Assembly: GCA_041666265.1 (NCBI GenBank) | Contig: JBAYHH010000002.1 | Coordinates: 9,096-73,095, forward strand | Reading direction: 5' to 3' | DNA from: Candidatus Magasanikiibacteriota bacterium | GTDB taxonomy: Bacteria > Patescibacteriota > Patescibacteriia > Magasanikbacterales > GWA2-37-8 | DNA length: 64,000 bases | Part shown: positions 611 to 44,982 of the stretch, in pieces | Position numbering within the stretch: position 1 is the stretch's first letter | How the letters are laid out: every line of letters starts with the position of its first letter | Made by a program: the position numbers and the translations under genes | Notes under the pieces: generated by a model | Seen by the model: only the letters and a program-made list of their open reading frames with translations | Told to the model about the DNA's origin: nothing | Databases searched by the model: none

Positions 611-3600
611 CTAATTCATCTCCGACGGCAACACGATGATGTGCCCATCATACGGAATGTAGGAATAATTGCCGGCATCGGGGAAATTCAAATTCAAACT
701 ATTTTGGTATTTACTGCAATATTGGGTGCCGTCGGATTCGCGCGCGATCGTATTGGGATTGTCCGGGAAATTATAGCAACCTCGTTGGATACCACGCGCG
801 TTTTTGGCATCGCCGGCCGCGGTCGAAGCGTAGCACCCGCCCGTGCACCAACCCCAATTATCCACGAGCTGGATGCGGGGGCGATAGGCGCAGACGATGT
901 CGCCGGTCTTGAGGAACGACCCGATGTGGGTTTCGGAAATTTCGATCTCGTCCGGCTTGAGCGGATTGGCGCCGACTTTCATGAGAGCATACGGCCCCTG
1001 CGGAAATTTCTTGTGTTGCGGGATATTATCCCAGGTGGTCGATGGCATGGGGCACTCGTAGATGTAACCGACTTCGGTGTAGCCCGCTTCGCAACCGGTA
1101 TCGTTGGAACTGCCAAAACCGCCAAAATATGTCTCGACATCGGACGGAACATTGGATAGGTAAGCATGGCACTGCCCGGTAGATTCGCCGATAGCGCAGT
1201 CTTTTGCGCTGGCACATGGCACTTCCGGATAGTTGGTGCAAAAATATTTTGTTGCATTACTGGCAAAACACCGCGGTTTGCGATTGGCGAGCGGACCGAT
1301 TGACGGCAAAGTAGCCTGATCCACATCTTTGAAAGTATCGGCAAAATCCACTTCCATCGAAGTGATCGGCATTTGGTTCGGATGCGCCCAAGAATAATAC
1401 CGAATCTTCACTTCAGCGCCGGCTTTGACCAAGATATCTCCGCGGATTTGATTATTCACGGAAAATCTGTCCAATGCGGATATTTTACAATTTCGTCCTT
1501 GATCTTCGCTGCAATCCTGGTAGATACCTTGCTCCTCATCGCCATAATGTGAACGATCCAAATCTGGCGCGGCGACGATCGGCGGAAAACGGGTGAAACG
1601 AGTCGCTCCCGGGGCAGCAGTATCAAAATATGAATTTGATTTTAATGGGTAATCAACTACTGTTTCTGAGATTCCCGGCCTTTCAGTATAATTAACTATA
1701 TGGCTATTTAATTCATAAATACCGTAAATTCGTCTGAACAATCTTTCCACCCACAAACAATAGATACTGTCTATGCTGGGCGAGCTGTTTACATTGAAAC
1801 CTGAACATTCGGTTTTAACAAAATTACTTGCTTCGTAGTCACGATTAATAAGCAAGGGGATACCGCTATCGCCAAATTCACTGAAACTACTGTCATAAGA
1901 TACTCCAAGACTAACCTGGTCACGAATTGTGCTACTATTAATATCAAACCAACCCAACGGTATTGTGTCGCCAACATCACCGCGATAATAATTGTTAAAA
2001 GTAAAATCGTATGGCCTGCCCGTTGAACGCAAATACCCGATCTCAAAAACATCCTTCATCAAGCCATATGGTTTATCGGGGACAAATACTGACCATGGAA
2101 TAATAAATTTCTTTTGAATTACGGTATCAGAAATAGATCGGTAATCATAAGGTTGACGCGCGCGCCAGGTACTTAGTAAAAAATTATTTTTACCTGCTTT
2201 CACTTGTGCGATACTGCGACAATATCCGAGAGTGATATCTTCAAAATAACCGACTACAACATATCCCAATTTCATTTCATTATCCAACGATCCGCAATAA
2301 CTTTCTCGAGCAGGTATGAACGGCGGGATATTACCTTGATCACAATCCGGTGGCACATCAAACCCTTTACATAAATCGACATTTACATACGATGTTTGAT
2401 TTGGAAATCCTGTCTCTATTGAACAAGTATACGACATCCGACGAAATCTTGATCCTGATTTTGTGATTCCAGCTCCCAAACCAGCATCCTCTTTATGATA
2501 AAATCCTCCATTAGCTATTTGAAACACAAGCGCTTTGTTATTTGTGCTCTCAATATTAGTTTCGCTAACTTTAATTTGAACAGATGAATAAGGTAAAACA
2601 TCGTATATCTGAAAAATACCGTTGTCAGCGCTACTTTCAGCATTTATATTTTCTTCGCAAAATGACCCACTGCTTTCTACGCCAGTCGTCATACAAGTTT
2701 TGTATTTTGACATCTGAGGCTGCGAAAAAGTTTGATGAAGTAAAATATATTTAATAGCATTTAGTCCTTCATGATCATCAATTATTGTCGAGCGATCAGG
2801 TTGAGTGGTTTCCCCGATATTCTTTTGTAGACGACTAATAACTTGATCGTTAGTTAAAATCGCATCTGTCCCTACTGCATTATATGTATTATCAACTCGT
2901 ATGGCTCGCCACTGATATACTGGAATTGGAGGCGACGAAGAACCGTCCAAAGTTTCTGTTAGCTGCTCAAATTTGCTCTTGATTTCCACATTTTGTCTTG
3001 TATTGGAAAGTGTGGAAACGGTATGATCTTTAATACCGGAATACAAGTTGTGATCACTGCTAATTTTGTCAAAATCAAACACCACTACTCCCGGAGCAAT
3101 CGGATAATTGCCGTGCTCCCACATGCCATTAATATTTTCGAGTGTCCAGACTGGGTCTGAATTAAGATTGATTGCTCTCGTCAAATATACTTCAGCTTTT
3201 ATTAAGCGATATTTTGTTTTGTCCCAAGTAAAATTATTCAGTACTTGTAGCTTGCCACTACCGGGATCAACCGTGCCCGATCCTAACACTGTATTAAACT
3301 TACTTTCCGTGCGACGAAATATAACATTTGTGCTTTGAGGTTCAGAATTGTGAATACATGCTAATTGCGCATCTGGGACTATCGACGACGACTGTGGAAA
3401 TACCACTCCAATATTTTCATCCAAACCCTGTCCTATGCAATCATTTTTCCAAATATTTCCATCGACAATATCGACCAACGCAGTATAGAATGGATCACCA
3501 AGCTGTAGATTTGTAATGGTATTTATACTGCTTTCGATACATTTAAAACGAGAATTATCGCCATCAAAAGTATCGCCAATATTACTATTATTGTACCATG

Positions 3601-6600
3601 TTCCACTCTCGTTTGCCGTAGCTCGATTATTCACCCCGGCCGGGCTATTCACCGGCAACCAACTAAGACACGCGTAATCGGGCGCATTGCTCATGGCCGT
3701 GCCATTGAGCGGACGGCGCAAATCATGCTCCAGACAATAACCTTTCCAGCCTGGGATTTCTTGGGTGGATTGGCGCGGGAGGCAGGTGCCGGCGAGGGTG
3801 GGGTTCTCATACACTTCAACTGTTTGCTGTATACCCAAACCACTATTTGTACACCTAAATATCAATGAAGAGTCACCGATTTGCATTTTTTCAGAAACAC
3901 CATCTGATATAGATACTGATCCTTCACAATCATGATAATAGACTTTATCGGTGCGATCACCTGCTACAAGGCAAGAATACACGCAAGTCGGCGGTGAACT
4001 ATAATTCTTCAATGACACTGAATCACCATCTTTTGCATACAAATTTCTTGGAAATGCAAGGTACTTCAAGCCAGTAGTCGCTATTCCGAAACTTGACGAG
4101 CTAAATCGATAATATGTCTTACCAACATTTGACGCATCATTTGCTGCACAATTCCACGGCTCCCCGGTCACGCTCCAATACCCTTTGGGCGCGCCACTAC
4201 TATCGAGCTCATTGGTCGGCACCTGTGGCCAATAAACAATTTTTTGATTGGACGGACTACTCCCCTCGGCGCCATATCCGAGCTTGTAATATCCACAATC
4301 ACAATCCTTCCCGCCGTTGGACTTGTCCTCACACAGTTTGACATTATCGAAACCCGGCCAAGAGCCGTCGCTCGATGACAGAGAATTTTTAAATACCGAC
4401 AACGGGAACGGCGAATTTGCCTCGGGATAACCGCGACAAGTGAATGAGCTCGTCACCACCTCGACATCGGACGGCGAAAAATGCGGCTGGTCACTGCGAT
4501 CAGTAAACATCGAAAAACCGGTGTAGTCGGGCCCGCCCCAGGTGATATCGCGATCGAGATAATTGACCATGCCGGCGCGCACGCTGAGGGCGCGATCGAC
4601 GATCACCTTGTCTTTGTCGGCGCGGGTCTCGGTGACATCGTGGGCGCATTTATTATCTCCCGAGCTGGGGAGAAATTTATCGCACACGCCGAGCATGTAG
4701 CACTCTTGTTCTTGTTTATTGGTAATCGGATTAAACCGGTAATTCGCCAGCCGGCAATAATCCCACTCGGCGCAAGCGCGGTCGGGCAAAGCTTGGACGA
4801 TAATATTGGCATCGAGCGTGCCACTGGCGATTGGCGCCACTTTTTCGCCGTTCTGGCGATTGCTGTCGCGATAAGTCAATCCGGTGTTCCAATATTTATT
4901 GACGATATCGGTCTGGTCGAGAAGCACGCACCCGAGATTGAGACTGGCCATGCCATTGCAGGCGCCGAGGCTGGGTTTGATTTTTTCGTTCATTAGTAAA
5001 TAATAACTCTGGCAGGGTTTGCCCGGCTGACAATCGTTTTTGTCGGTAAATTCGGTACAACTGTTTTGGCTAAGCGGACACTCGCCCACGAAACCGTTGT
5101 ATTTATTGTTGGTGCCATACGACCACAGATCATATTTCTGATAATCCACCAGATAATCCGGATAGCAGGCCTGCTTGTCGGTGTCGATGCATTTGGTCCC
5201 CTCGGCGCCTGAACAATCTGAGTCGACTTTACAATACGCGGGCGACTGCTCGCTGCTTTGGTCGCACCTACCCACGCCTTTCCAAAACCAGCCATAAGTG
5301 ATGCCATAGGGCGCTTTTTCGACGCGTGTTTGCCAACTGCAGATTTTTTGACCGATGACTTTGGGATCTTTAAAATACAAATCACCTTTGGACGAGCCAT
5401 ATTTATTACAACCGACTGCCTCGTTGGTGCACAAGGTGCCCGCGGAATTATTTGATCCAAAATAACCGTCCGGCAAATTTTTGACGCGCGTAGCGGTGAA
5501 TTTCGGACCGGATGGGGTGTCTGTTTGTTTGCCCGCGTCCATACAACCGACATTAGCGGCGGTGCAGGCGGATTTCTTGTCGGCTACGAGATAGATCGGG
5601 GTGGTCGAAGGGGTGTCGGCCGGAATGTGGATGGTGGAGGAAGTAATTTGGGCGGTAGTCGCGACAATATCCGCATAACTCTGATGTGAGATATTGGTAT
5701 AACACCCATAAGCGCCGGTTTCCGCGATACACGAATATTCAGTTCCACCAACCGTCACCGTTAATTTTCCGGCATCTCTTGGCCCGGGCAACCACACATT
5801 ATAATACCCTTCGCCGGTATCGCTCTGGGTATTTTGGGTGTCGATCACCGCGGTACAACCGACCGCATCCTCGCGACACAAATAACTGAAATTAGTGAGA
5901 TAAAATGGATTGTTATTTGGCGTCTGATAACGCGCGCAACCAAGGGCCTCGCCCGGCAAATTGTCGAGAGGATTGCTATCGCAAAGAGTGTTTACTGATA
6001 GAGATTTTTTGACGAGATAAATATAGTCTACCACTTCCATCAGTTTAATATTGTCAATATAGATTCGACCGGAATTATTGAGAGTAAATTTTAATTGCGC
6101 GGTCGAAGTGGCGCCGGCGAGCTCCACCGGCCCGAGATGATAATGTCTCCAAGAATCGCCGATCTCCACATCGCCGAGCGCTGTATTGGCATTATTAGCC
6201 AAGCTAATAGAAACTTTTTGCGTGCCACCGTTCGCACCCGTGCCTTTGGCCCAAAATGTCAAATCATAGCCTTTTTCCGGATTGAGTTTGAGATTTTTGG
6301 CGACAACGGCACTGCCGGCCGAAGCATAAAATGACAGCGAGTGTTCGCCGGTCTTGGTTGATTCACTGACGAGAGAAATACTGCCATTATTCGTGACCCA
6401 GCCCGCGAGCGCCTCGGTCGTAGAAGTATTTTCAAATTGATCGTAAAAAATATTACGGACATTATTGCCGGCATTGCCTTTGTAAGCGCGACAGGTCTCA
6501 ACCGCGGCCGAGCACACTCGGCTCACGCCCGCGGTGTTATTTTCACCGGCCGGCAAGCCATTGTAGTAGCAAAATCCGTCTTTGTACTCGCCATTATTGA

Positions 6601-9600
6601 AACAGAGCTCGCAATGATCGGTATTCCAATAGCCTTTTTTGGCGCTACATTCGGTTGCGTCCAAGCCGTCGGTTTCGGATTTCGCCGGCAACGCCTGCAA
6701 TTCGGCGGTATTTAATCTATAAGGCGTGCAGGTCTGCGACACCGGCACGGTCTGCGAAAGAATGCGATAATAGGTATGACCCTTATCGTCGGTAAATTGT
6801 CGACAATCCGGACTAACCGCATCGTCCCAGTCAACACTTTTTGACCCCTGGGCATACACCGTGGCATTGCAAACCAGTTTGAAATAATCCAAATCAGCCT
6901 GCGTGCGATAAAAATACGCCGGGCCGTCTTTGATCGCGTCCGCGTCCGCTTCGCCGGATTTATCTATTTTCAAAACATAACTTTTTAATTGAACACCCTC
7001 GGCTTGCGTGCTCTCGTAAGTGAAAAATTTCCCGCTTGTCGCCTGATCGGGCGTGATGCATGGGCGCAGATAGGCGTAGTAGTCGATTTTTTCCATTTGC
7101 CCCACGAGAGCGCTCATATTGGTAAAGGCGCTACAGCCCTCCTCGACAGCCGAACAGGTATTGCCGGACTTGGGGATAATATAGGCTAAATTTTGGCCAC
7201 GACTATAATTGCTCGGCATCTCGCGATAAGACGCGTAGCCCACGCATTTGGCGTCGCATTGGTCGTTCCAATTGAGCACCAGGCCATTGGCAATTTCCGC
7301 CGGATTAAATTTGCCCGGGATCTGCTCCCCGCTCGCCGAGGCCGTATACATATTACAATTTTCCTCGGCTGCGATACAGGGCTGGGCGTATTTGGCGCAC
7401 TCGGTTTTTTTCCAGGGCAATAAATTGGTGTTGATGCCATTGAGATCAGAAAGTGAATCGGGCCAGACGGTCGCGACCGATTCGGGACGGGCATTGTAGC
7501 ACCCGAGATAGTCCGGCGCCCGACGCAAATAAAGCGAGGCATCGTCGAGCGTGGCGGTATAGGCCGTGCAACCCGAGGAATTGCCGGTACAATCGGTCGA
7601 AACTTTGCCGTTGAAATGAATCGCGGTATTTTGAAAATTATTTGATGGTGTCGGCGCGCTCGCGGTGAGCCAATTACCGGCATCGTCTTTGGTCAAACTA
7701 TAAATGGCGCAACCGGCATTGTCGGCGTTGCATTTACCGGTGTCGAGCGTGCGATAAAGATAGCCGACTTGTTTGCCCGAGACATCTTTGAAACTGACAC
7801 AAGACGCGTATTGCTCCTCGCAATTGTCGGCGTTAAATTTCCAGACATTTTTTTCTTTGAGACAATAACCATAGCTCTGACAGCTCTTGCCGTCGAGACT
7901 GTAGCCCACGCACCCCTGCAAATCGGCGCATTCTTTGGAGCGATTGCCCGAGCCCGGCACCTCGATATCCGACCCGAAAACAAGCGCGTTACAGCGGTGG
8001 GGCGGGACTTTGATCACCCAATTCGGATTGATGAGGTGGCAAAACGGTTTCTTGGCATCATGGACAACATGGCCCTGCGCGTCATAGGTGCAATCATAAA
8101 ACCCGTTGACCACATCTTCGAGGGTCCAGGGGGCGTCCGGGTTGCTGTTGCGGGCGGCAATTTCAAACCCGAGCGGTAAGATGCGCGCCTGACGCATTTT
8201 TTTGACATTGCTATAACAATAGTATTTTTGATAGCACTGCGGGCTGGTGTCCTCGCTATTGGTGGGCGGGATCAGTTTGAATTTTTTGTGCAAAAGATCG
8301 CGTTGCATCGCCTGGGTGATGGTGAGATAGCGACCGGTGCTGTTGGGCTCGTTGAGCGCGGAGGCGAGGGCGTAATCGATGATACAATTATCCGGCGTGG
8401 GATTGGCCGGGCAAGCACCAAAAAGATTGACTAAATTCCATTCATCGATCGAATTGATTGGGGATTTGAGCAGATCGATAAACATCGCTTCGGCGACTTG
8501 GCGGCCGGATGCCGTGGTAGCGTCGGGATCTTTAGGATCCGGACCACCATCGTCATCCTCTGGTTTTGGTTCCCAGCTACCGTCATCATTGCCGATTTCA
8601 TCCAATCCCAATTCCGGCATCTCCGGCCAATCAAATTCTTGTTTTTTACAGACATCGGACACGCAAAATCCAAAAAGCATGCCGTTGTACATGAAGTTAT
8701 TAAGAACCTGAGAAAAAAAAGTATTAAAGAATACTGCCGGCGTGTAAATTAGCAAATCCTTCATCCCCGAAGCCATCGACGAATTGATCACCTGCGTGTT
8801 GGTCTTGGCTTTTTCCGAAGCCGATTGATTTTGAAATTCTTTTTGCATCACTTGCGCCGGAGTCTTGACATTGCCCGAGATAATATCCGACATGCCGATA
8901 GCACCCTGGCCTTCATCGCGCTGTTTCTCGGCTCCATAGGTATTCTCTTTGACGGTGCGATCGACTTTGGCGCTGGCATCGAGATAAATGCCAAGGTCGC
9001 TTTGATCGGGTTTGATGGAAAAATTAAAATTCTGCGCCATGTTTTTCCAATAGCGACTGCTCCCTACTTGTTTCCAGTTGCTCAAAAATTGGGTAAAAGT
9101 ACATTTTGGTTTTTCCGGAAAATATTTACCTTTGAGGCCGAGCCGCAAAGCCAAATCCAAAAACAAGGTCGGCGGGGCGCACAAATCGACGCCCAATATT
9201 TCACCAAGACCCTGTAAAAAAAAACCGGCCGCGTCGTTGCCCACACTCGCCATATAATCGCCGAAATTGTTGTAATGTGAAAACGGCGTCTCGCCCTTGC
9301 CACCGGCGGCGAGATAAACCGCGCTATCATAGGCGACACGCGTGATAAACGACTGAATCGCCTGCGTGATGCCCATATAGGCGGCCAAAAGCATCACTTC
9401 ATACCATTTCATCTCCACTTCTTTGGCGAAATATTTGGCGCGCAGGGCTTGGAGGACTTCGTTGATTAAGGGTAAATTTTGAAAATTATCAATAGTGGGG
9501 CCTGGTGAGACAACTGTCGTTGGTGCCCCGGGCACCTGCGCTCTCACCGACGCCGGCACGGCCAAACTCCCAAAAACCGACACCGACAAAAATACCGTTA

Positions 9601-9646
9601 CCGCGAAACAATAGACGATTTTTTTGAGTGTGTTGGGCATAAACAA
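611..9646 (-). CDS. Giant (3011 aa) secreted cysteine-rich surface protein with at least one carbohydrate-binding-module-like / jelly-roll domain
   Basis: Single uninterrupted ORF with an N-terminal signal/TM (MFMPNTLKKIVYCFAVTVFLSVSVFGSLAVPASVRAQ). It has very many Cys, NG and DG motifs. A CBM4/9-like segment is present (...LKFTLNNSGRIYIDNIKLMEV). It starts 1 nt after the upstream co-oriented gene. Confidence 0.85.
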   Translation of the reverse strand: MFMPNTLKKIVYCFAVTVFLSVSVFGSLAVPASVRAQVPGAPTTVVSPGPTIDNFQNLPLINEVLQALRAKYFAKEVEMKWYEVMLLAAYMGITQAIQSFITRVAYDSAVYLAAGGKGETPFSHYNNFGDYMASVGNDAAGFFLQGLGEILGVDLCAPPTLFLDLALRLGLKGKYFPEKPKCTFTQFLSNWKQVGSSRYWKNMAQNFNFSIKPDQSDLGIYLDASAKVDRTVKENTYGAEKQRDEGQGAIGMSDIISGNVKTPAQVMQKEFQNQSASEKAKTNTQVINSSMASGMKDLLIYTPAVFFNTFFSQVLNNFMYNGMLFGFCVSDVCKKQEFDWPEMPELGLDEIGNDDGSWEPKPEDDDGGPDPKDPDATTASGRQVAEAMFIDLLKSPINSIDEWNLVNLFGACPANPTPDNCIIDYALASALNEPNSTGRYLTITQAMQRDLLHKKFKLIPPTNSEDTSPQCYQKYYCYSNVKKMRQARILPLGFEIAARNSNPDAPWTLEDVVNGFYDCTYDAQGHVVHDAKKPFCHLINPNWVIKVPPHRCNALVFGSDIEVPGSGNRSKECADLQGCVGYSLDGKSCQSYGYCLKEKNVWKFNADNCEEQYASCVSFKDVSGKQVGYLYRTLDTGKCNADNAGCAIYSLTKDDAGNWLTASAPTPSNNFQNTAIHFNGKVSTDCTGNSSGCTAYTATLDDASLYLRRAPDYLGCYNARPESVATVWPDSLSDLNGINTNLLPWKKTECAKYAQPCIAAEENCNMYTASASGEQIPGKFNPAEIANGLVLNWNDQCDAKCVGYASYREMPSNYSRGQNLAYIIPKSGNTCSAVEEGCSAFTNMSALVGQMEKIDYYAYLRPCITPDQATSGKFFTYESTQAEGVQLKSYVLKIDKSGEADADAIKDGPAYFYRTQADLDYFKLVCNATVYAQGSKSVDWDDAVSPDCRQFTDDKGHTYYRILSQTVPVSQTCTPYRLNTAELQALPAKSETDGLDATECSAKKGYWNTDHCELCFNNGEYKDGFCYYNGLPAGENNTAGVSRVCSAAVETCRAYKGNAGNNVRNIFYDQFENTSTTEALAGWVTNNGSISLVSESTKTGEHSLSFYASAGSAVVAKNLKLNPEKGYDLTFWAKGTGANGGTQKVSISLANNANTALGDVEIGDSWRHYHLGPVELAGATSTAQLKFTLNNSGRIYIDNIKLMEVVDYIYLVKKSLSVNTLCDSNPLDNLPGEALGCARYQTPNNNPFYLTNFSYLCREDAVGCTAVIDTQNTQSDTGEGYYNVWLPGPRDAGKLTVTVGGTEYSCIAETGAYGCYTNISHQSYADIVATTAQITSSTIHIPADTPSTTPIYLVADKKSACTAANVGCMDAGKQTDTPSGPKFTATRVKNLPDGYFGSNNSAGTLCTNEAVGCNKYGSSKGDLYFKDPKVIGQKICSWQTRVEKAPYGITYGWFWKGVGRCDQSSEQSPAYCKVDSDCSGAEGTKCIDTDKQACYPDYLVDYQKYDLWSYGTNNKYNGFVGECPLSQNSCTEFTDKNDCQPGKPCQSYYLLMNEKIKPSLGACNGMASLNLGCVLLDQTDIVNKYWNTGLTYRDSNRQNGEKVAPIASGTLDANIIVQALPDRACAEWDYCRLANYRFNPITNKQEQECYMLGVCDKFLPSSGDNKCAHDVTETRADKDKVIVDRALSVRAGMVNYLDRDITWGGPDYTGFSMFTDRSDQPHFSPSDVEVVTSSFTCRGYPEANSPFPLSVFKNSLSSSDGSWPGFDNVKLCEDKSNGGKDCDCGYYKLGYGAEGSSPSNQKIVYWPQVPTNELDSSGAPKGYWSVTGEPWNCAANDASNVGKTYYRFSSSSFGIATTGLKYLAFPRNLYAKDGDSVSLKNYSSPPTCVYSCLVAGDRTDKVYYHDCEGSVSISDGVSEKMQIGDSSLIFRCTNSGLGIQQTVEVYENPTLAGTCLPRQSTQEIPGWKGYCLEHDLRRPLNGTAMSNAPDYACLSWLPVNSPAGVNNRATANESGTWYNNSNIGDTFDGDNSRFKCIESSINTITNLQLGDPFYTALVDIVDGNIWKNDCIGQGLDENIGVVFPQSSSIVPDAQLACIHNSEPQSTNVIFRRTESKFNTVLGSGTVDPGSGKLQVLNNFTWDKTKYRLIKAEVYLTRAINLNSDPVWTLENINGMWEHGNYPIAPGVVVFDFDKISSDHNLYSGIKDHTVSTLSNTRQNVEIKSKFEQLTETLDGSSSPPIPVYQWRAIRVDNTYNAVGTDAILTNDQVISRLQKNIGETTQPDRSTIIDDHEGLNAIKYILLHQTFSQPQMSKYKTCMTTGVESSGSFCEENINAESSADNGIFQIYDVLPYSSVQIKVSETNIESTNNKALVFQIANGGFYHKEDAGLGAGITKSGSRFRRMSYTCSIETGFPNQTSYVNVDLCKGFDVPPDCDQGNIPPFIPARESYCGSLDNEMKLGYVVVGYFEDITLGYCRSIAQVKAGKNNFLLSTWRARQPYDYRSISDTVIQKKFIIPWSVFVPDKPYGLMKDVFEIGYLRSTGRPYDFTFNNYYRGDVGDTIPLGWFDINSSTIRDQVSLGVSYDSSFSEFGDSGIPLLINRDYEASNFVKTECSGFNVNSSPSIDSIYCLWVERLFRRIYGIYELNSHIVNYTERPGISETVVDYPLKSNSYFDTAAPGATRFTRFPPIVAAPDLDRSHYGDEEQGIYQDCSEDQGRNCKISALDRFSVNNQIRGDILVKAGAEVKIRYYSWAHPNQMPITSMEVDFADTFKDVDQATLPSIGPLANRKPRCFASNATKYFCTNYPEVPCASAKDCAIGESTGQCHAYLSNVPSDVETYFGGFGSSNDTGCEAGYTEVGYIYECPMPSTTWDNIPQHKKFPQGPYALMKVGANPLKPDEIEISETHIGSFLKTGDIVCAYRPRIQLVDNWGWCTGGCYASTAAGDAKNARGIQRGCYNFPDNPNTIARESDGTQYCSKYQNSLNLNFPDAGNYSYIPYDGHIIVLPSEMN

Positions 9647-9647: not shown

Positions 9648-10607
9648 TTATTGAGCGGCGGTGGACTGGGCCAGCGCGTTTAATATTTCTTGCACTGTAG
9701 TCATGATTTGCGCGTCGGTCATCTGGTCCACGCTCGCTTTATCCATCCCCTGTTTGATCAATAAAACGCGCGCGGTAGTAGGATCGGATAATTGCTTGAG
9801 TAGGTCAGCCGGCAACGATACATTTCCGACCGTGGTATTGGGCGCGGTAGCGGGCGGTGTCGTCACTGTCGGCGCGATCGCTGCCGACACAGAGCTCGAT
9901 GTCATTTTGCCGCTAAGCGCGAGCGCGGTGAGCGAACCCAAAATCGATGGACTGGACGAACTATAGGCGGCAAAATCCCGATTGCTCTCTTCGATTGCTT
10001 TGGCCACCATCGCTTTGATATCCGCGTCACTTAGACTATTCAAATCATCGGCGCTCGTCCCCTGTCTTTGCAATAAATTACGCACCGCGGTCGGATCGTC
10101 TTTGAGTTGATTGAGGAAATTCATCTGAGCATTGCGCGCGTCGGCAGTGAAATCATGATCAGACGCGAATCCACCGGATAATTGCGCGTAAGAAAATGTC
10201 CCGCTCGCGCTGGCTGTGGCATAAGCGCTCGCTACCTGCGTCGAGCAATACTTGCCGTGCGGACAAAGCGGATTTTCATTTTGGACAATCTCTTGTTTGT
10301 CGGCGATGCCGTCGCTGTCGGTGTCGGCGAGATACGGACTCGTGCCATAGACATACAATTCCTCGAAATCACTAAGGCCGTCATTGTCGGTGTCGCGATA
10401 CGCGAGCGTCTCCACACCATTGACTTCATTGCTCACCTCGGCGGGCACGCCGCTCCCAAGCTGAAACGGGCTATACATGGTATTGCGCAGTTGGAGCACC
10501 CCGAGGCCCAGCGCGGATACGGCAAAAACCAGCAATAAAACAAAACCCACTTTCTGTTCATGCGAAAGTTTTCGGATAGATTGTTGGGGCGATGCCTGAT
10601 CGTCCAT
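9648..10607 (-). CDS. Membrane-anchored protein with thrombospondin-type-3-like Ca-binding repeats (DTDNDGLSDFEE, DTDSDGIADKQE) and an internally repeated C-terminal region
   Basis: The ORF track extends to 10685, but that extension overlaps a terminator hairpin of rsmA. A start at MDDQASPQQ (10607) is followed by a TM helix. The gene is probably translationally coupled to the giant gene. Confidence 0.65.
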   Translation of the reverse strand: MDDQASPQQSIRKLSHEQKVGFVLLLVFAVSALGLGVLQLRNTMYSPFQLGSGVPAEVSNEVNGVETLAYRDTDNDGLSDFEELYVYGTSPYLADTDSDGIADKQEIVQNENPLCPHGKYCSTQVASAYATASASGTFSYAQLSGGFASDHDFTADARNAQMNFLNQLKDDPTAVRNLLQRQGTSADDLNSLSDADIKAMVAKAIEESNRDFAAYSSSSPSILGSLTALALSGKMTSSSVSAAIAPTVTTPPATAPNTTVGNVSLPADLLKQLSDPTTARVLLIKQGMDKASVDQMTDAQIMTTVQEILNALAQSTAAQ

Positions 10608-10651
10608 AATCCAAATAGTTACGAAATTATTATACCATAATTTTTTACAAA

Positions 10652-10680
10652 AAACCACAGCCCTGGGGCTGTGGATAACC
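10652..10680 (-). terminator. Rho-independent terminator downstream of rsmA (stem CCACAGCC/GGCTGTGG plus T-run); contains the DnaA-box 9-mer TTATCCACA
   Basis: The minus strand reads GGTTATCCACAGCCCCAGGGCTGTGGTTTTTTGTAAAAAA. Confidence 0.55.
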
Positions 10681-13128: not shown

Positions 13129-13304
13129 AGCTTGTGTATTATACTGTGGATAAACCATCTTGACAATCACCACAAAATGTTGTAGTATTAAAGTAATGGT
13201 AGGTTTAGCTGTAAAGAACATTTACGCTCCGAACTCCAAAGCTCCCGCAAGGGAGTTTTTGGTTTTTATATTGTGTGATATAATTATTGCGCTGTCACCG
13301 AGAC

Positions 13305-13376
13305 GGGCCGAGTGTAAGTGGTTCTTACAGCCGGACCTACCATTCCTGCTTTGGGGTTCGATTCCCCCTCGGTCCA
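13305..13376 (+). ncRNA. tRNA-like element. Acceptor stem, D-arm and T-arm are good, but the anticodon stem is mispaired; a degenerate or pseudo-tRNA, or a non-canonical tRNA
   Basis: GGGCCGA gt GTAA gtggttc TTAC a gccggacctaccattcc tgctt TGGGG TTCGATT CCCCC TCGGTCC a. The T-loop TTCGATT and the 7-bp acceptor (one G-U) are clear. The CCA end is not encoded. Confidence 0.3.
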
Positions 13377-24028: not shown

Positions 24029-25655
24029 AAATTAAAAATATTATACCGGCATACGATATCGCCATCGTCGCTATCCCCACTCGCATATCAACGGCGGCCA
24101 AACTCCACCCGGCAAACCACTGCGTCAATATTATAACATACTTTAGACCGATGCCGGCTATCCAAGCTACGACTTGCCCCAAAGGAAATAATACCAACGA
24201 AAGCAGGACGGAAATAAAACCAAACAGCATCAGCCAGGGAATTATCCACAGTACGAGCACATTGACGACGGGCGCGACGATTGATAATCGACCAAATTGA
24301 AATAGGATTAGGGGCAAAGTGATGATAATCGCGGAAAGAGTAGAAATAAAAGTTTCAACTATCGCAGAATATATCACATTATCAACCTGAGCGGAGCGAA
24401 GGATCTGGTCACACTCGCATCTATTTGATAGATTCTTCGCGGAATTTATACTGAGCGGAGCGAATGTGCTCAAAATGACAGACTTTAAAACCGGACTCAA
24501 ATATACGAGGCCCATGGTCGCTAAAAATGACAACTGAAACCCCGCGTCCCAAATCAAAATATACGGATTCATCAAAAGCATCACGGCGGCGGTCAACGCC
24601 AGCACATTACCCATTTTTGATAACCGGCCCATTTGCTGGGCAATCAAAACAATAATCCCCATGATTCCGGCGCGAATTACCGAGGCCGAAGCGCCGGTAA
24701 ATATTACAAATAGTATTATTCCGGCGACACAAGCCCAAAAAGCTTGCGGGCGATACAAACCAATAGTGATAAGCGCGGTCATCAAAACAGACGCGATGAT
24801 ACTGATATTATATCCGGAAATCGCGATGATATGCGTGATGCCGACCCGGCTGAAATCATCTTTTAATTCCTGTGATAATCCGGCGCGCGCGCCATAGAGC
24901 AATCCGGCCATGAGCGATGACTCGGGTTCGGGCCAAAGTTTTTCTACTTGGGTGTTGATTTTGGATTTGAGAGAAAAAATTAATTTTAGCGGCGTTCCCC
25001 ACCAATTGTCATCCCCGCGAAAGCGGGGATCCAGACACCATTCACTCGATGCCTGGCTGGTCGCGACTGGATTCCCTTTTTCAAGGGAATGACAGCCGGT
25101 GATGGACGGTCGATAGCAAATCGAATAGATGCCGTCTTTAGCCAAATACTTTACATAATTAAATCGGGAATCATCTGAATTTTTGGGCGCTTGCAAATCA
25201 CACTTGATACGCAACACATCACCGAATCGATATTGCGGATGAAGCGGAGCATTGATAAGAACACGGCCTTTTTTACCGCTAATATTTCCGACCACATACT
25301 TCGCTCCGGCGATGCCAATATCTGGTTCCTGCGCCACCTGGCCGACAAATTCCCATTTATTTCCATTGTAATACGCGATTTGTTTTTCTGTTATCATTGG
25401 TGTCGCTGACAAATACCTGACCCCTCCGAGAATAATAAATATTATCATCAGTAACGCGCAACGCGCCCGCCAATCATACCAAAATAATATCAACAAAAAT
25501 ATTAATGCGAGCAAAAGAATATATAATCGAAATAGCCAATATTTTTCCCAATCAAACACTGAAAAAATGGAAACACCGGTAATGAAACAAAAACAAAGCG
25601 CCAAAAACGCTTTGCTTTTTGAATTGACAAATTTTTTGATCCCCTCCCCTTTCAT
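23970..25655 (-). CDS. comEC: ComEC/Rec2 DNA-uptake channel, transmembrane competence domain (DUF4131 plus Competence), with two in-frame family-A repeat insertions
   Basis: A multi-TM competence domain is present (...ELKDDFSRVGITHIIAISGYNISIIASVLM...). The inserted peptides LSINSAKNLSNRCECDQILRSAQVD and CHSLEKGNPVATSQASSEWCLDPRFRGDDNWWGT map to repeat DNA. Confidence 0.85.
   Translation of the reverse strand: MKGEGIKKFVNSKSKAFLALCFCFITGVSIFSVFDWEKYWLFRLYILLLALIFLLILFWYDWRARCALLMIIFIILGGVRYLSATPMITEKQIAYYNGNKWEFVGQVAQEPDIGIAGAKYVVGNISGKKGRVLINAPLHPQYRFGDVLRIKCDLQAPKNSDDSRFNYVKYLAKDGIYSICYRPSITGCHSLEKGNPVATSQASSEWCLDPRFRGDDNWWGTPLKLIFSLKSKINTQVEKLWPEPESSLMAGLLYGARAGLSQELKDDFSRVGITHIIAISGYNISIIASVLMTALITIGLYRPQAFWACVAGIILFVIFTGASASVIRAGIMGIIVLIAQQMGRLSKMGNVLALTAAVMLLMNPYILIWDAGFQLSFLATMGLVYLSPVLKSVILSTFAPLSINSAKNLSNRCECDQILRSAQVDNVIYSAIVETFISTLSAIIITLPLILFQFGRLSIVAPVVNVLVLWIIPWLMLFGFISVLLSLVLFPLGQVVAWIAGIGLKYVIILTQWFAGWSLAAVDMRVGIATMAISYAGIIFLIYESQNKNSRVNAWLRSRGR
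24386..24480. repeat. Family-A palindromic repeat, in-frame in comEC
   Basis: CCTGAGCGGAGCGAAGGATCTGG...GATTCTTCGCGGAATTTATACTGAGCGGAGCGAATGTGCTCAAAATGACA. Confidence 0.8.
25007..25094. repeat. Family-A variant palindromic repeat, in-frame in comEC
   Basis: TGTCATCCCCGCGAAAGCGGGGATCC...GATTCCCTTTTTCAAGGGAATGACA. Confidence 0.75.
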
Positions 25656-28600: not shown

Positions 28601-28811
28601 GGCCCTGCATCATTTTCATACGCGCCACGATATCGGTGGCAATGTAGCCCTTGGGATGGCCGACATGGAGTCCGGCGCCCGACGGATACGGAAACATATC
28701 CAAAACATAAAACTTCGGTCGGTCGGATGAATCGCTGGTTTTGAAAGTTTTGTTTTTCTCCCAATATTTTTGCCACTTTTTTTCGATTTTGGCCGGATGG
28801 TATTGATTCAT
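25686..28811 (-). CDS. leuS: Leucine--tRNA ligase (LeuS), 1041 aa, with an inserted YdeN/RBBP9-type serine hydrolase (alpha/beta hydrolase) domain in the ZN-2 region and a short family-A repeat insertion
   Basis: HVGHP (HIGH), the ZN-1 CxxC...CxxC, the editing-domain motif TTRPDTLFG and KMSKR are present. Between VKCEACANKK and CPKCSGPAKRETNTM lie about 230 extra aa: ILIHGFTSNSSRGFKPWLKTELEKDGHRVWNPDLPNTTNP...VLVGHSLGGPVTYRILE. Confidence 0.95.
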   Translation of the reverse strand: MNQYHPAKIEKKWQKYWEKNKTFKTSDSSDRPKFYVLDMFPYPSGAGLHVGHPKGYIATDIVARMKMMQGHNVLHPMGWDAFGLPAENYALKNKMHPAESTEKNVQVFKKQLGLLGFTYDWDREVNTTDPEYYRWTQWMFIEMYKRGLVFESNEPINWCPSCKTGLANEDLDDGKCERCGSIVEQKPMRQWVIKITDYAERLLNDIDKLTEWPEPIKEMQRNWIGKSEGALVKFAVIPTEAQGRAEESLSIEVFTTRPDTLFGCTYCVVAPEHELLRNQKFNIKNQKEVNEYIANAKNKTVMERTELAKEKTGIEIQGIKAVNPANGEQVPIFVADYVLGNYGTGAIMAVPAHDERDWEFAKKYDLPIRCVVIPDAYSVESASKPFSDNFQKDQDVEMTKILLGEKCNVSGGISTNSDFLNGLKTPEAKQKMITWLEEKNIGKKKTQYKLRDWVFSRQRYWGEPIPLVKCEACANKKFNYILIHGFTSNSSRGFKPWLKTELEKDGHRVWNPDLPNTTNPNVNEQAKYVLENSPFSIDEDTVLVGHSLGGPVTYRILESINKKIARTVLVDPVVRPRFNDQDRPEVVASCDWQFDWKKIKINGGKIVVLGDIHRPIIKKEHLVELEKNLGADLWWVIPQNYHFSSRGGAVESEPAVLRASIDSGWSVVDDEELPLELPKVKHYEPSGTGESPLATIEKWVNTKCPKCSGPAKRETNTMPQWAGSSWYYLAYAMPRVKGKYIWDKKVIEYWIGSGLAPRSPSEAQGEGGVDFYVGGAEHATRHLIYARFWHKFLFDIGMVAHDEPFKRLQNLGVILAEDGRKMSKRWNNVINPNDIVARFGADAMRVYEMFMGPFDQPCAWNMQGVVGAKRFLEKVWDLFPRLDKNFTADASVGIMHKTIKKVTEDISEMKFNTAISQLMIWVNELRAQEKTSFDELKNLTLLLAPFAPHLCEELWEMLDQKSSVVNADWPKYNPAKIQDNEITLAIQVNGKLRDTIVVPFDISDTDAKDRALASEKVQKWLEGRAPKKVIYVKGKLVSIVA
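28060..28106. repeat. Family-A partial repeat, in-frame in leuS (encodes IPTEAQGRAEESLS)
   Basis: AGATTCCTCCGCTCGGCCTTGGGCCTCGGTCGGAATGACA. Confidence 0.7.
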
Positions 28812-30678: not shown

Positions 30679-31941
30679 TTATCTAAGCTTCCTTTTAGAC
30701 CGATTAAATTTAATCGCGAAACGATGCGCTTCGTCGCGTACCTGAATTAATAATTTAACATTGGCATAAGCCCATTTTTGGATTTTCAGATCGCGATCGC
30801 TAAAAATAATCTCATTGTTTTTTCGTGTTGGTCCTTTGGCAATGCCAATCACCGGGGTCGTTATTTTTGCGAAAGATAAAATCGATTTAACTTTATGCAC
30901 TTGAGGCACACCGCCATCAATCAAAATTATATTCGGCATGGGCCATTCGTCATGGCGAATACGACGAGAAATAACTTCGGCTAAGCAATCGACATCGCTT
31001 TGCCCCACTACAGTTTTGATATTAAATTTCCGATACTCTGATTTTATCGGCCCACTCTCGTCAAACACTACCATGCTCCCCACTTTATCCGTATCGCCCA
31101 AATTGGAAATATCGTAGCCTTCGATGCGGATATGCCCCGTATTTCGACCGAAAAAGTGGAGATCTCTCGCTTCGTTCGGGATGACAGCGTTGGTAAACCC
31201 ACTGTTTAATAGTGCGACATCTTGAATATGACGAAGCGCTTCGATCTGATCGCGCAACCGGCCCGCCTCTTCGAAATCTCCATACTTGGACGCGAGCTTC
31301 ATGCGATTGTTTAATTGATTCAGAAGCGACCGCTTTTTCCCGGACAAAAATAGCACCAACGGTCTAATCACTTTTTGACGATAATCAAGCGCGCTAATCT
31401 CTCCACTGCACACCCCGAGACACTGTCCAATCTGACGATATAGACATGGCCTGCCTTGCTGTGGCTGACAAAATGACACCGAAAATAATTTGCGCAGTAT
31501 TTTTTCAAATTCACGCATTTTTAAATGTGGATAAGGACCAAACAATATATTTGATTTTTGATATTTTATATTTGATTTGATTTCATGCTCACGCACAAAT
31601 TTCACCTGCGGATATTTGTCTTTCGAGATCGCGATGTAATTCCAGCTTTTATCGTCTTTCCAATCAATATTATATTTCGGGCGAAATTTTTTGATTAAAT
31701 TTCCTTCGAGAATTATCGCTTCCAAGGCCGAGTCGGTGGATTGTGTTTTTAAATTTACCACCTCATGAATCATTGCTTCGATCGGACGCACAGTGCGCGG
31801 ACCGGTGAAATAACTGCGCACCCGATCACGCAAACTGGTGGCCTTACCGACATAAATTAATTCACGCTCGGAATTGAAAAACAGATACACACCGGGAGTA
31901 TCTGGTAATTTCTTTAACTTTTTTTCGATAACGCTCTTCAT
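30679..31941 (-). CDS. uvrC: Excinuclease ABC subunit C, compact form (GIY-YIG, UvrBC-interaction and RNase-H-like endonuclease domains; lacks the C-terminal (HhH)2 domain), with in-frame family-C and family-A repeat segments
   Basis: GVYLFFNSERELIYVGKATSLRDRVRSYF (GIY-YIG); ...KYGDFEEAGRLRDQIEALRHI (UvrBC); RIEGYDISN...; only 420 aa. KSNIKYQKSNIL is encoded by the AT-rich tandem repeat. Confidence 0.85.
   Translation of the reverse strand: MKSVIEKKLKKLPDTPGVYLFFNSERELIYVGKATSLRDRVRSYFTGPRTVRPIEAMIHEVVNLKTQSTDSALEAIILEGNLIKKFRPKYNIDWKDDKSWNYIAISKDKYPQVKFVREHEIKSNIKYQKSNILFGPYPHLKMREFEKILRKLFSVSFCQPQQGRPCLYRQIGQCLGVCSGEISALDYRQKVIRPLVLFLSGKKRSLLNQLNNRMKLASKYGDFEEAGRLRDQIEALRHIQDVALLNSGFTNAVIPNEARDLHFFGRNTGHIRIEGYDISNLGDTDKVGSMVVFDESGPIKSEYRKFNIKTVVGQSDVDCLAEVISRRIRHDEWPMPNIILIDGGVPQVHKVKSILSFAKITTPVIGIAKGPTRKNNEIIFSDRDLKIQKWAYANVKLLIQVRDEAHRFAIKFNRSKRKLR
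31161..31186. repeat. Family-A partial repeat, in-frame in uvrC
   Basis: GATCTCTCGCTTCGTTCGGGATGACA. Confidence 0.6.
31546..31587. repeat. Family-C AT-rich tandem repeat, in-frame in uvrC (encodes KSNIKYQKSNIL)
   Basis: Coding strand: AAATCAAATCAAATATAAAATATCAAAAATCAAATATATTG. Confidence 0.7.
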
Positions 31942-35443: not shown

Positions 35444-35587
35444 ATTTGTAGAAAATTTTATACAAAATTACGCTTATTTGTAGGTATTTTAATACAGATT
35501 GGCATTGGTGTCAAACTGCTTATCCACAAGCACACAAAAAGAACGGGGTGAGCCCGTTCTTTTGTAATTACGAATAATTTGAGATAA

Positions 35588-37944: not shown

Positions 37945-37953
37945 TTATCCACA
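37945..37953 (+). promoter_or_regulatory. Perfect DnaA box TTATCCACA
   Basis: Exact 9-mer. Confidence 0.5.
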
Positions 37954-38192: not shown

Positions 38193-38201
38193 TTATCCAC
38201 A
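38193..38201 (+). promoter_or_regulatory. Perfect DnaA box TTATCCACA (248 bp from the previous one, same orientation)
   Basis: Exact 9-mer. Confidence 0.5.
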
Positions 38202-38226
38202 CAAAAAGCCCGACCATCGGTCGGGC
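38196..38226 (-). terminator. Rho-independent terminator downstream of trmD (GCCCGACCGATGGTCGGGC plus TTTTTGTGTGG)
   Basis: A GC-rich hairpin followed by a T-run on the minus strand. Confidence 0.7.
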
Positions 38227-44885: not shown

Positions 44886-44969
44886 ATTTTTATATTAAAA
44901 ATAAAATAAAAAATTTTCATTTACATTATTATATCATATTTTTATAAATAATAAAAACCACTACCCGCA

Positions 44970-44982
44970 AGCTGTGGATAAC
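44970..44982 (-). promoter_or_regulatory. 12-mer GCTGTGGATAAC (contains the DnaA box TTATCCACA on the minus strand), about 90 nt upstream of the giant-protein start; identical to the 12-mer at 10668-10679
   Basis: The exact repeat is visible in both places. Confidence 0.5.

What the first reader, a model, noticed from the sequence alone, without database searches (positions are those of the whole stretch)
10668..10680. Identical DnaA-box-containing 12-mer upstream of both giant-protein operons
GCTGTGGATAAC occurs at 10668-10679 and at 44970-44981, each time preceded by AAAAACCAC. It contains the perfect DnaA box TTATCCACA on the minus strand. The first copy lies just upstream of the TSP3-repeat gene plus 3011-aa giant gene, inside the rsmA terminator hairpin. 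The second lies about 90 nt upstream of the 1979-aa giant gene. The full 12-mer is perfectly duplicated, and the 9-mer occurs four times where about 0.5 would be expected by chance. This suggests a shared operator for the two surface-protein loci, bound by DnaA or another regulator.
Basis: partly seen in the sequence, partly recalled or inferred. Interest (0 to 1): 0.5.

Follow-up and report, generated by a model that had tools for sequence, protein, structure and literature searches.

The report
Conserved DnaA-box promoter element in CPR bacteria
A perfect copy of the 9-base site bound by the replication initiator DnaA sits just upstream of the promoters of both giant surface-protein loci in this candidate-phyla-radiation (CPR) bacterium, is conserved there in dozens of relatives, and also precedes the chaperonin and ribonucleotide-reductase genes, so it looks like a small DnaA-type regulon, not a private switch for the giant genes.

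Summary
GCTGTGGATAAC occurs twice, at 10668-10679 and 44971-44982 (not 44970-44981). TTATCCACA occurs 8 times, not 4, against 0.5 expected, and 6 of the 8 lie in the ~6% of the window that is intergenic.

The functional unit is the 9-mer, not the 12-mer. The extra bases and AAAAACCAC are one arm plus the T-run of the rsmA terminator hairpin. The copy-2 promoter resembles copy 1 more than its own orthologs.

The contig is a Patescibacteria (CPR) metagenome contig near Magasanikbacteria.

- **TSP3-giant operon:** 68 of 80 orthologous promoters carry the box (at most 1 mismatch), always in the same orientation. It usually lies 22-24 nt upstream of an extended -10; the window's spacing is 35 nt.
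- **Second giant gene:** all three lineages found carry a perfect box.
- **Other targets:** perfect boxes also precede groES in five lineages and nrdR-nrdD in six loci spanning at least four named CPR candidate groups.

Best explanation: a transcription-factor site, most likely for DnaA, coupling these promoters to replication status. Binding is inferred, not shown.

The site is conserved at both loci but is not specific to them. It is a new member of a known kind, of moderate interest.

The parts
10670..10678 (-). Copy 1 of the perfect DnaA-box consensus TTATCCACA. It lies 35 nt upstream of the -10 hexamer of the TSP3-giant operon promoter.
   Evidence: A box is conserved at the orthologous position in 68 of 80 relatives.
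10649..10674 (-). rsmA intrinsic terminator: CCACAGCC-CCAG-GGCTGTGG followed by T6. Its 5' arm is the 3' half of the box.
   Evidence: 8-bp stem, 6 GC pairs. (-17.5 kcal/mol, z = -3.7). The same hairpin design with different loops occurs in L091, L093 and L094.
10629..10637 (-). Extended -10 element TGgTATAAT of the TSP3-giant operon promoter. No -35 hexamer is present.
   Evidence: One search gives the coordinates. One search finds no -35/-10 pair. 59 of 63 orthologous promoters have TG-n-TATAAT.
9648..10607 (-). Small membrane-anchored TSP3-repeat protein gene (319 aa), the first gene of the operon.
   Evidence: PF18884; called start at 10607; family alignment A1.
611..9646 (-). Giant protein gene (3009/3011 aa, CBM_4_9 domain). 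It abuts the TSP3 gene, so it is the second gene of the operon.
   Evidence: The pairing of a TSP3 gene with a 2500-3200-aa gene is conserved in nearly all relatives.
44973..44981 (-). Copy 2 of the perfect box. It lies 39 nt upstream of the -10 hexamer and 88 nt upstream of the ATG of the 1979-aa gene.
   Evidence: Orthologs L088 and L171 carry a perfect box in the same orientation.
44928..44936 (-). Extended -10 element TGaTATAAT of the 1979-aa gene promoter.
44953..44972 (-). Weak hairpin-like stretch GCTTGCGGGTAGTGG followed by T5. It mimics the copy-1 terminator but is not significantly stable.
   Evidence: -7 kcal/mol, z = -0.62. tsf has its own terminator at 45008-45037. The copy-2 promoter resembles the window's copy 1 more than its own orthologs.
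38946..44885 (-). Second giant surface-protein gene (1979 aa; CarboxypepD_reg and fn3 domains).
37945..37953 (+). Perfect box in reverse orientation relative to groES. It lies 16 nt upstream of the groES -35 hexamer. The architecture is TGTGGATAA-N16-TTGACA-N16-TAAAAT, followed by a CIRCE-like repeat at 37864-37890.
   Evidence: The same architecture occurs in L083, L114, L119 and L130, and with CTATCCACA in L107.
38193..38201 (+). Perfect box immediately after the trmD terminator and 28 nt upstream of the -35 hexamer of a small structured-RNA gene.
   Evidence: L083 has TGTGGATAG at the same place.
35520..35528 (+). Perfect box between the groEL terminator and the -35 hexamer (5 nt away) of the AAA_14/DUF4143 ATPase gene promoter.
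13145..13153 (-). Perfect box inside the 17-nt spacer of TTGTCA-N17-TATAAT, the likely promoter of the DUF4015 glycosidase gene (probable start at 13128).
   Evidence: It is not conserved in L083, L084 or L087.
24242..24250 (+). Intragenic box inside the ComEC-like gene. It probably has no promoter role.
31526..31534 (-). Intragenic box inside uvrC, encoding P-Y-P-H. It is probably a coding coincidence.

Best explanation
The element is a single high-affinity DnaA box (TTATCCACA) that forms part of the promoter architecture of the TSP3-giant operon and of the second giant gene. It is not a 12-bp operator.

**Shown**
- The 9-mer is about 10-15 times over-represented in the window, and 6 of its 8 copies lie in ~6% intergenic DNA.
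- It is conserved at the same place and in the same orientation upstream of both giant-gene loci. This holds in relatives whose proteins are only 38-63% identical and whose surrounding intergenic DNA has diverged.
- In most relatives it lies at a fixed 22-24 nt from an extended -10 element (TGnTATAAT). That places it at about -43 to -35, where the missing -35 hexamer would be. The window's clade has a 33-36-nt spacing, with the rsmA terminator hairpin built onto the box.
- The same box is conserved upstream of groES (16-19 nt upstream of a TTGACA -35, in the opposite orientation) and upstream of nrdR-nrdD in six loci spanning at least four named CPR candidate groups.

**Inferred**
- The protein that binds is DnaA. 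It is the only known factor with this specificity, and it is universally conserved. It is already known to regulate ribonucleotide reductase and heat-shock genes elsewhere.
- Bound DnaA contacts RNA polymerase from a fixed face and position. This ties transcription of the costly giant surface proteins, the chaperonin and dNTP synthesis to replication and cell-cycle status, read through DnaA level and DnaA-ATP/ADP state.
- I lean towards activation, because orientation and spacing are fixed and a -35 hexamer is absent. Repression by occlusion cannot be excluded.
- The perfect 12-mer plus AAAAACCAC identity between the two window copies most likely reflects intragenomic copying or conversion of the TSP3-type promoter onto the second giant gene.
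For: **Over-representation.** The window holds 8 copies against 0.53 expected. Unrelated control loci give 0.79 per 64 kb.

**Intergenic bias.**
- In the window, 6 of 8 perfect boxes lie in 6.4% intergenic DNA. One-mismatch variants show no such bias, at 2 of 24.
- Across 897 kb of CPR sequence, 25 of 35 perfect boxes lie in 6.9% intergenic DNA.
- Excluding the TSP3 sites, the split is 15 intergenic to 8 coding.

**Orthologous conservation, locus 1.**
- L083 has a perfect box 35 nt from TGgTATAAT, while L084 and L087 have one-mismatch boxes.
- 68 of 80 metagenomic orthologs have a forward box with at most 1 mismatch at -53 to -125 from the start codon (most at -53 to -75).
- Only 14 of 533 control genes do.
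- TATCCAC is the commonest 7-mer in these regions, in 45 of 74. TATAAT is in 39 of 74.

**Spacing.** 42 of 63 promoters have a 22-24-nt spacing, and 59 of 63 have an extended -10.

**Locus 2.** L088/L089/L090 have a perfect box, the only one in 23 kb, lying 42 nt from TGtTATAAT. Contig L171 begins with the box, 27 nt from TATAGT.

**groES.**

**nrdR-nrdD.** L158, L167, L172, L174/L175, L176 and L177 each have a perfect box upstream. In most of these loci it is the only perfect copy; L174/L175 carry a second just after nrdD.

**Literature.** DnaA regulates nrdAB in E. coli, is proposed to do so in B. subtilis and Caulobacter, and represses rpoH (PMC8203912).
Against: - No dnaA gene, oriC or DnaA-box cluster is present in the window or in any fetched locus. 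The lineage's own DnaA-box preference could therefore not be checked.
- Common orthologous variants change positions 7 and 9 (TTATCCCCA, TTATCCACT). From memory, these positions matter for E. coli DnaA binding, so those sites would be weaker DnaA sites, or they fit another factor.
- The spacing is not uniform. It is 35 and 39 nt in the window and 27-42 nt at giant-2 orthologs.
- Box position and orientation differ between promoters, so a single stereospecific mechanism is not proven.
- The direction of regulation is unknown.
- Distant orthologs (under 37% identity) and the Uhrbacteria, Kuenenbacteria and Buchananbacteria rsmA-TSP3 junctions lack a forward-oriented box with at most one mismatch; L177 has only a degenerate TTATCAACA and L172 a reverse-oriented one-mismatch box.
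Confidence: 0.6

Rival explanations
1. The box is bound by a different factor, not DnaA. This could be a CPR-specific transcription factor or an RNA-polymerase-associated factor whose site happens to coincide with the DnaA consensus. It would act as a substitute for the -35 element at extended -10 promoters.
For: The box has a fixed 22-24-nt spacing and a fixed orientation relative to the -10, with no -35 hexamer. Clade-specific variants TTATCCCCA and TTATCCACT change positions that DnaA is thought to read. An A two positions upstream of the box (46 of 63) lies outside the classical 9-mer.
Against: The optimum at independent sites is exactly TTATCCACA (15 intergenic to 8 coding). The motif is invariant across several CPR classes at nrdR-nrdD, which suits a universal protein with frozen specificity. 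Any perfect box would be bound by DnaA anyway. At groES the box coexists with a normal TTGACA-N16-17-TAAAAT/TAAGAT promoter in the opposite orientation, so it is not itself a -35 element.
Confidence: 0.2
2. The boxes do bind DnaA, but they serve replication control or insulation, not promoter regulation. They could be datA/DBC-like titration sites, or roadblocks that reinforce termination at gene ends.
For: Several boxes sit directly at or after terminators. Copy 1 lies inside the rsmA terminator, 35520 follows the groEL terminator, 38193 follows the trmD terminator, and the L088 box abuts the tsf terminator. The window's density of 8 per 64 kb is high. B. subtilis has DnaA-box clusters outside oriC that modulate initiation (PMC3245932, listed).
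Against: The sites are single boxes, not clusters. The only cluster is 3 boxes in 260 bp at the trmD-groES spacer. The distance to the downstream -10 is fixed at 22-24 nt, while the distance to the upstream gene varies. Orientation relative to the downstream gene is conserved. These features point to the promoter.
Confidence: 0.1
3. The 12-mer GCTGTGGATAAC (with AAAAACCAC) is a dedicated operator that co-regulates only the two giant surface-protein loci.
For: The 12-mer and the AAAAACCAC-N9 arrangement are identical at the two loci and occur nowhere else in the window.
Against: Relatives conserve only the 9-mer. The flanking identity is explained by the terminator stem and T-run, and by the resemblance of the copy-2 promoter to copy 1. 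The same 9-mer is conserved at groES and nrdR-nrdD and sits at other promoters.
Confidence: 0.04
4. The match is a chance or structural by-product. The box is merely what a terminator stem (CCACAG...CTGTGG) happens to spell, or it is part of a dispersed repeat, and it has no regulatory role.
For: Copy 1 overlaps a real terminator.
Against: Relatives with a separate terminator (L083, L088) or with none still keep the box. The eight window copies share no flanks. 68 of 80 orthologs carry the box against 2.6% of control genes. The loop and 3' arm vary while the box does not.
Confidence: 0.02

Closest known systems
DnaA boxes acting as transcription-factor sites (E. coli dnaA, nrdAB, rpoH, mioC; B. 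subtilis sda, ywlC and others; Caulobacter gcrA, ftsZ, nrd)
   Same: The 9-bp consensus TTATCCACA is identical. The boxes are single or few and lie in promoter regions, in either orientation. A ribonucleotide-reductase operon and a heat-shock function are among the targets (PMC8203912). The sites lie outside oriC.
   Different: The targets are new: a conserved TSP3-giant surface-protein operon, a second giant gene, groES directly (not via rpoH) and the class III nrdD (not nrdAB). The organisms are uncultivated CPR bacteria. At the TSP3 operon the box sits at a fixed 22-24 nt from an extended -10 in place of a -35 hexamer. I do not know of this layout for DnaA-regulated promoters. Binding by DnaA was not shown here.
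Class II activator-dependent promoters and the MarA/SoxS/Rob marbox logic (asymmetric monomer site whose orientation depends on its distance from -35)
   Same: The site is asymmetric. In one orientation it abuts the -35 position (TSP3 operon). In the opposite orientation it lies about 17 nt upstream of a real -35 hexamer (groES). The promoters have an extended -10 and lack a -35. This comparison rests on my own knowledge of these systems.
   Different: The sequence motif and the presumed protein are unrelated. The window's own two copies lie further upstream (35 and 39 nt from the -10). Activation is not demonstrated.
B. subtilis DnaA-box clusters (DBCs) and E. coli datA
   Same: These are high-affinity boxes in intergenic regions outside oriC.
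   Different: They are clusters of several boxes. Here the sites are single boxes, and the only cluster is 3 boxes in 260 bp at the trmD-groES spacer.

Membership tests
DnaA box (DnaA-binding site) | 9-bp match to the consensus TTATNCACA (best form TTATCCACA) | tested here: met
   Perfect TTATCCACA at both copies and at six further sites.
DnaA box (DnaA-binding site) | Occurrence beyond chance, with selection (intergenic bias and conservation at orthologous sites) | tested here: met
   8 copies against 0.53 expected. 6 of 8 lie in 6.4% intergenic DNA. 68 of 80 orthologs carry it against 14 of 533 controls. Locus 2 orthologs carry it.
DnaA box (DnaA-binding site) | Physical binding by the organism's DnaA | not testable with these tools
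   This needs EMSA, SPR or ChIP. The organism is uncultivated.
DnaA box (DnaA-binding site) | The same box type is used at the lineage's own oriC or dnaA promoter | not tested
   No dnaA gene is present in the window or in 897 kb of related loci.
DnaA regulon | Boxes at genes known to be DnaA-controlled elsewhere (ribonucleotide reductase, heat-shock control) | tested here: met
   A perfect box lies upstream of nrdR-nrdD in six CPR loci and upstream of groES in five lineages. Literature: PMC8203912.
oriC / DnaA-box cluster (datA, DBC) | A cluster of several boxes within a few hundred bp | tested here: not met
   Both copies are single boxes. The only cluster is 2 perfect boxes plus 1 near-match in 260 bp at 37945-38201.
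oriC / DnaA-box cluster (datA, DBC) | GC-skew switch and adjacency to dnaA or dnaN | tested here: not met
   Cumulative GC skew falls steadily across the window. No dnaA or dnaN was found.
Rho-independent terminator | A stable GC-rich hairpin followed by a T-run just after a stop codon | tested here: met
   Met for copy 1: 8-bp stem plus T6, -17.5 kcal/mol, z = -3.7, about 30 nt after the rsmA stop. Not met for copy 2, where z = -0.62 and tsf has its own terminator.
Class II-type (-35-replacing) activator site | The site abuts the -35 position at fixed spacing and orientation, with an extended -10 and no -35 hexamer | tested here: inconclusive
   Met in most orthologs: 42 of 63 have a 22-24-nt spacing and 59 of 63 have TG-n-TATAAT. 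In the window itself the spacing is 35 and 39 nt. Activation was not tested.
Dispersed repeat (REP/MITE) | Copies share extended flanks or terminal repeats | tested here: not met
   The eight copies share only the 9-mer, and only two share the 12-mer.

The most novel reading that the evidence does not exclude
In genome-reduced CPR bacteria, which have very few transcription factors, the replication initiator DnaA may double as a conserved master regulator. Its regulon would couple replication status to the giant cell-surface proteins (candidate host-attachment machinery), the GroES/EL chaperonin and anaerobic dNTP synthesis. At the giant-protein operon a single DnaA box would take the place of the -35 element of an extended -10 promoter, a promoter architecture not described for DnaA.
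Probability: 0.45. Interest if true: 0.65.

Novelty: new member of a known kind. Interest (0 to 1): 0.45.

Why it matters
Almost nothing is known about gene regulation in CPR/Patescibacteria. Most are uncultivated, and their giant surface proteins are prime candidates for contact with host cells.

A single, easily recognised cis-element is conserved across dozens of lineages at the giant-protein operon, the chaperonin operon and the ribonucleotide-reductase operon. This gives a concrete, testable regulon.

If DnaA is the binder, surface-protein production in these organisms is tied to the replication cycle. That could be tested with purified DnaA and with metatranscriptomes ranked by replication index.

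I found no paper linking DnaA boxes to CPR promoters in the held library.

Tried and rejected
1. **Genome-contig scan with EF-Ts.** The protein is too conserved, and only Bacilli and other unrelated bacteria at about 50% identity came back. I reused those loci only as a background control.
2. **oriC in the window.** There is no GC-skew switch and no dnaA or dnaN.
3. **dnaA in related loci.** The test of whether oriC uses the same box could not be done.
4. **Dispersed repeat.** Rejected, because the flanks of the eight copies differ.
5. **Alternative -35 element.** Rejected, because at groES the box coexists with a TTGACA-N16-17-TAAAAT/TAAGAT promoter in the opposite orientation.
6. **NrdR, HrcA or LexA as the binder.** Rejected. 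CIRCE-like repeats, and (by eye) NrdR-box-like palindromes, are separate sequences at the same promoters. A LexA-like gene exists in L084, but its known box types do not resemble this motif (from my own knowledge).
7. **Copy-2 hairpin as a terminator.** It is not significantly stable.
8. **Conservation of the DUF4015 box (13145).** It is absent from L083, L084 and L087, so it is lineage-specific.
9. **Rfam match for the RNA upstream of groES.** None was found.

Full report
**1. The observation**

GCTGTGGATAAC occurs exactly twice, at 10668-10679 and 44971-44982. The expected number is 0.01.

Both copies are preceded by AAAAACCAC at an identical 9-nt distance. On the minus strand, which is the coding strand for almost every gene here, both read GTTATCCACAGC and contain the perfect DnaA-box consensus.

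The 9-mer occurs eight times, not four, against 0.53 expected. No shuffle reached eight. In 1.375 Mb of unrelated bacterial loci fetched by accident, the density was 0.79 per 64 kb.

**2. Context**

The window is part of a 118.8-kb metagenome contig, ENA ERZ27249449 k141_944606. RsmA homologs place it in Patescibacteria (CPR), near Candidatus Magasanikbacteria, with the nearest relative about 63% identical.

*Copy 1.*
- It lies between rsmA (10704-11849) and a 319-aa TSP3-repeat gene (9648-10607). That gene abuts the 3009/3011-aa giant gene.
- Reading the minus strand, the order is: TTATCCACA, then 35 nt, then TGgTATAAT, then 21 nt, then ATG.
- The box's CCACA plus the next G begin an 8-bp hairpin followed by T6. 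This is the rsmA terminator, at -17.5 kcal/mol and z = -3.7.

*Copy 2.*
- It lies after tsf, which has its own terminator at 45008-45037.
- It is 39 nt upstream of TGaTATAAT and 88 nt upstream of the ATG of the 1979-aa gene.
- Its hairpin look-alike is not significantly stable, at z = -0.62.

**3. Distribution in the window**

Six of the eight perfect boxes lie in the ~6.4% of the window that is intergenic. One-mismatch variants show no such bias, at 2 of 24.

Besides the two giant loci, boxes occupy these positions:
- Inside the spacer of the likely DUF4015 glycosidase promoter, TTGTCA-N17-TATAAT (13145).
- 5 nt upstream of the -35 of an AAA_14 ATPase gene (35520).
- 16 nt upstream of the groES -35 (37945). 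That promoter is followed by a CIRCE-like repeat.
- Directly after the trmD terminator, 28 nt upstream of the -35 of a small RNA gene (38193).

The copies at 24242 (ComEC-like gene) and 31526 (uvrC, codons P-Y-P-H) are coding.

There is no GC-skew switch and no dnaA, so the window does not hold oriC.

**4. Conservation at locus 1**

RsmA homologs led to syntenic loci with the order DUF4015, rsmA, small TSP3 gene, giant gene.

In the rsmA-TSP3 spacer:
- L083 has a perfect box 35 nt upstream of TGgTATAAT, with a separate rsmA terminator further upstream.
- L084 has TCATCCACA.
- L087 has TTATCCACT.

An alignment of the small TSP3 protein (A1) retrieved 80 metagenomic orthologs. Of the 80 upstream regions that could be analysed (these plus the window and rsmA-derived loci), 68 carry a box with at most one mismatch. 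It is always in the same orientation, at -53 to -125 from the start codon (most at -53 to -75). Twelve are perfect, and L098 adds another further upstream.

The comparison figures are clear:
- Chance expectation is about 1 of 80.
- Among 533 other genes in the same loci, 14 (2.6%) have such a box.
- Without any prior, TATCCAC is the most common 7-mer in these regions, in 45 of 74. TATAAT is in 39 of 74.

The architecture is box, then 22-24 nt, then TATAAT in 42 of 63 distinct promoters. Of the 63, 59 have the TG of an extended -10, and none has a visible -35 hexamer. The box therefore occupies about -43 to -35.

Secondary spacing classes lie at 33-36 and 42 nt.

The window's own clade (L091-L094) has the 33-36-nt class, and there the box doubles as the 5' arm of the rsmA terminator. 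The arms (CCACAG and CTGTGG) are constant, while the loops differ between relatives.

Distant orthologs (under 37% identity) and the Uhrbacteria, Kuenenbacteria and Buchananbacteria rsmA-TSP3 junctions lack a forward-oriented box with at most one mismatch; L177 has only a degenerate TTATCAACA and L172 a reverse-oriented one-mismatch box.

**5. Conservation at locus 2**

The N-terminal 700 aa of the 1979-aa protein has only two relatives in the protein collection.

- P0122 (38% identity) lies in the same rpmE-rpsB-tsf context. A perfect box, the only one in that 23-kb locus, follows the tsf terminator in the same orientation, 42 nt upstream of TGtTATAAT.
- The 1.5-kb contig of P0121 begins with TTATCCACA, 27 nt upstream of TATAGT and about 100 nt upstream of the gene.

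The flanks are not conserved. The window's copy-2 promoter aligns better with the window's copy-1 promoter than with its own orthologs. I read this as intragenomic copying or conversion, which explains the 12-mer plus AAAAACCAC identity. This step is inference.

**6. Other conserved targets**

*groES.* The architecture TGTGGATAA-N16-19-TTGACA-N16-17-TAAAAT/TAAGAT followed by a CIRCE-like repeat recurs in the window, L083, L114, L119 and L130. It occurs with CTATCCACA in L107.

*nrdR-nrdD.* L158 and L167 each have a perfect box about 215 nt upstream. Lookups of NrdD homologs all showed a perfect box upstream of the operon:
- Kuenenbacteria (L172)
- Falkowbacteria (L174/L175)
- Uhrbacteria (L176)
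- Buchananbacteria (L177)

In most of these loci it is the only perfect copy; L174/L175 carry a second just after nrdD.

Across 897 kb of CPR sequence, 25 of 35 perfect boxes lie in 6.9% intergenic DNA. Excluding the TSP3 sites, the perfect box splits 15 intergenic to 8 coding. Most one-mismatch variants stay near background, with TTATCCCCA, TTATTCACA and TTAGCCACA modestly enriched.

**7. Interpretation**

A short asymmetric motif with these properties is a transcription-factor site:
- It is conserved in position and orientation relative to the -10.
- It persists while the surrounding spacer diverges.
- It is shared by unrelated operons.

DnaA is the only known protein with this specificity. 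It is universal and its specificity barely drifts, which fits the invariance of the motif across CPR classes at nrdR-nrdD. It is already known to regulate ribonucleotide reductase in E. coli (and is proposed to in B. subtilis and Caulobacter), and to repress rpoH (PMC8203912).

I therefore take DnaA as the most likely binder, at about 0.6. I take transcriptional control as its role, leaning to activation because of three features: fixed spacing and orientation, the missing -35, and opposite orientation when the box lies upstream of a true -35.

None of this was shown. No dnaA or oriC of the lineage could be retrieved. The common variants TTATCCACT and TTATCCCCA alter positions that DnaA is thought to read. 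The spacing in the window itself (35 and 39 nt) differs from the majority class.

**8.

The idea of a shared regulatory site bound by DnaA or another regulator is supported for the 9-mer at both loci.

The idea of a 12-mer operator specific to the surface-protein loci is not supported.

I found no publication on this in the held library. It is a new set of members, with a slightly unusual promoter layout, of a known kind of regulation.

Noticed in passing
window 38005-38170 (minus strand); homologs at L083 ~1630-1793, L107 ~2188-2351, L114 ~3207-3370, L119 ~3007-3170: A structured small RNA gene of about 125 nt sits directly upstream of the groES promoter. It has its own TTGACC-N17-TATGAT promoter and its own terminator. 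RNAalifold on five lineages gives 46 pairs, 22 of them with compensatory changes, and conserved blocks CGCCAU, ACAGGCAUAG and AUAUGGACGG. There is no Rfam match at E <= 1. The 80-aa ORF called at 37997-38239 is probably spurious.
   Followed up: partly
window 13304-13376 (+), between the DUF4015 gene and uvrA: A tRNA-like element has a perfect T-arm and a 3' end reading ...CTCGGTCCA. ARAGORN and the Rfam gathering threshold both miss it. A sub-threshold tRNA-Sec match scores 24.7 bits at E = 0.006. It could be a degenerate or unusual tRNA, or a remnant of an integration site.
   Followed up: partly
window 37864-37890 (minus strand), and the groES leaders of L083, L114, L119 and L130: The HrcA-type CIRCE repeat has the variant half-sites TTATCACTC-N9-GAGTGATAA, where the classical form is TTAGCACTC-N9-GAGTGCTAA. 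The variant is conserved in five lineages.
   Followed up: partly
window, 8 copies, e.g. near 10945 and 11070 (inside the 3' part of rsmA) and near 590: The 12-13-mer GCTCAGAATGACA (reverse complement TGTCATTCTGAGC) is repeated 8 times. Some copies lie in the ~100-aa C-terminal extension that makes this RsmA 381 aa long, against 270-320 aa in relatives. Similar 'gaatgaca' and 'gtcatcccg' repeats flank the TSP3 promoters of several relatives.
   Followed up: no
window 25686-28811 (-): The leucyl-tRNA synthetase gene (1041 aa) carries an inserted alpha/beta-hydrolase domain (Abhydrolase_6, residues ~481-584) between the editing domain and the rest of the catalytic core.
   Followed up: no
L158 ~1925-1945, L172 ~9780, L176 ~270, L177 ~9235: A second conserved motif, TTT(A/C)CGACAC(T)TTTAAAAT, follows the DnaA box at variable distance upstream of nrdR-nrdD in several CPR classes. 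It is distinct from the NrdR-box palindromes nearer the promoter.
   Followed up: no
window 59373-59446 (+): This is the only tRNA gene in the window, a tRNA-Ile with the unusual anticodon TAT.
   Followed up: no
window 13416-16310 (-) and 61777-63999 (-): Two UvrA-like genes lie on the same contig. The second runs off the end of the window.
   Followed up: no
L103 2331-2347 and many TSP3 promoters (e.g. L101, L105, L114, L118): In the TTATCCACT class of TSP3 promoters, the box is often followed at once by a partial second copy (TTATCCAC-TTATCC/TTATCG). This gives an 8-nt direct repeat, and L103 has two full overlapping boxes.
   Followed up: no
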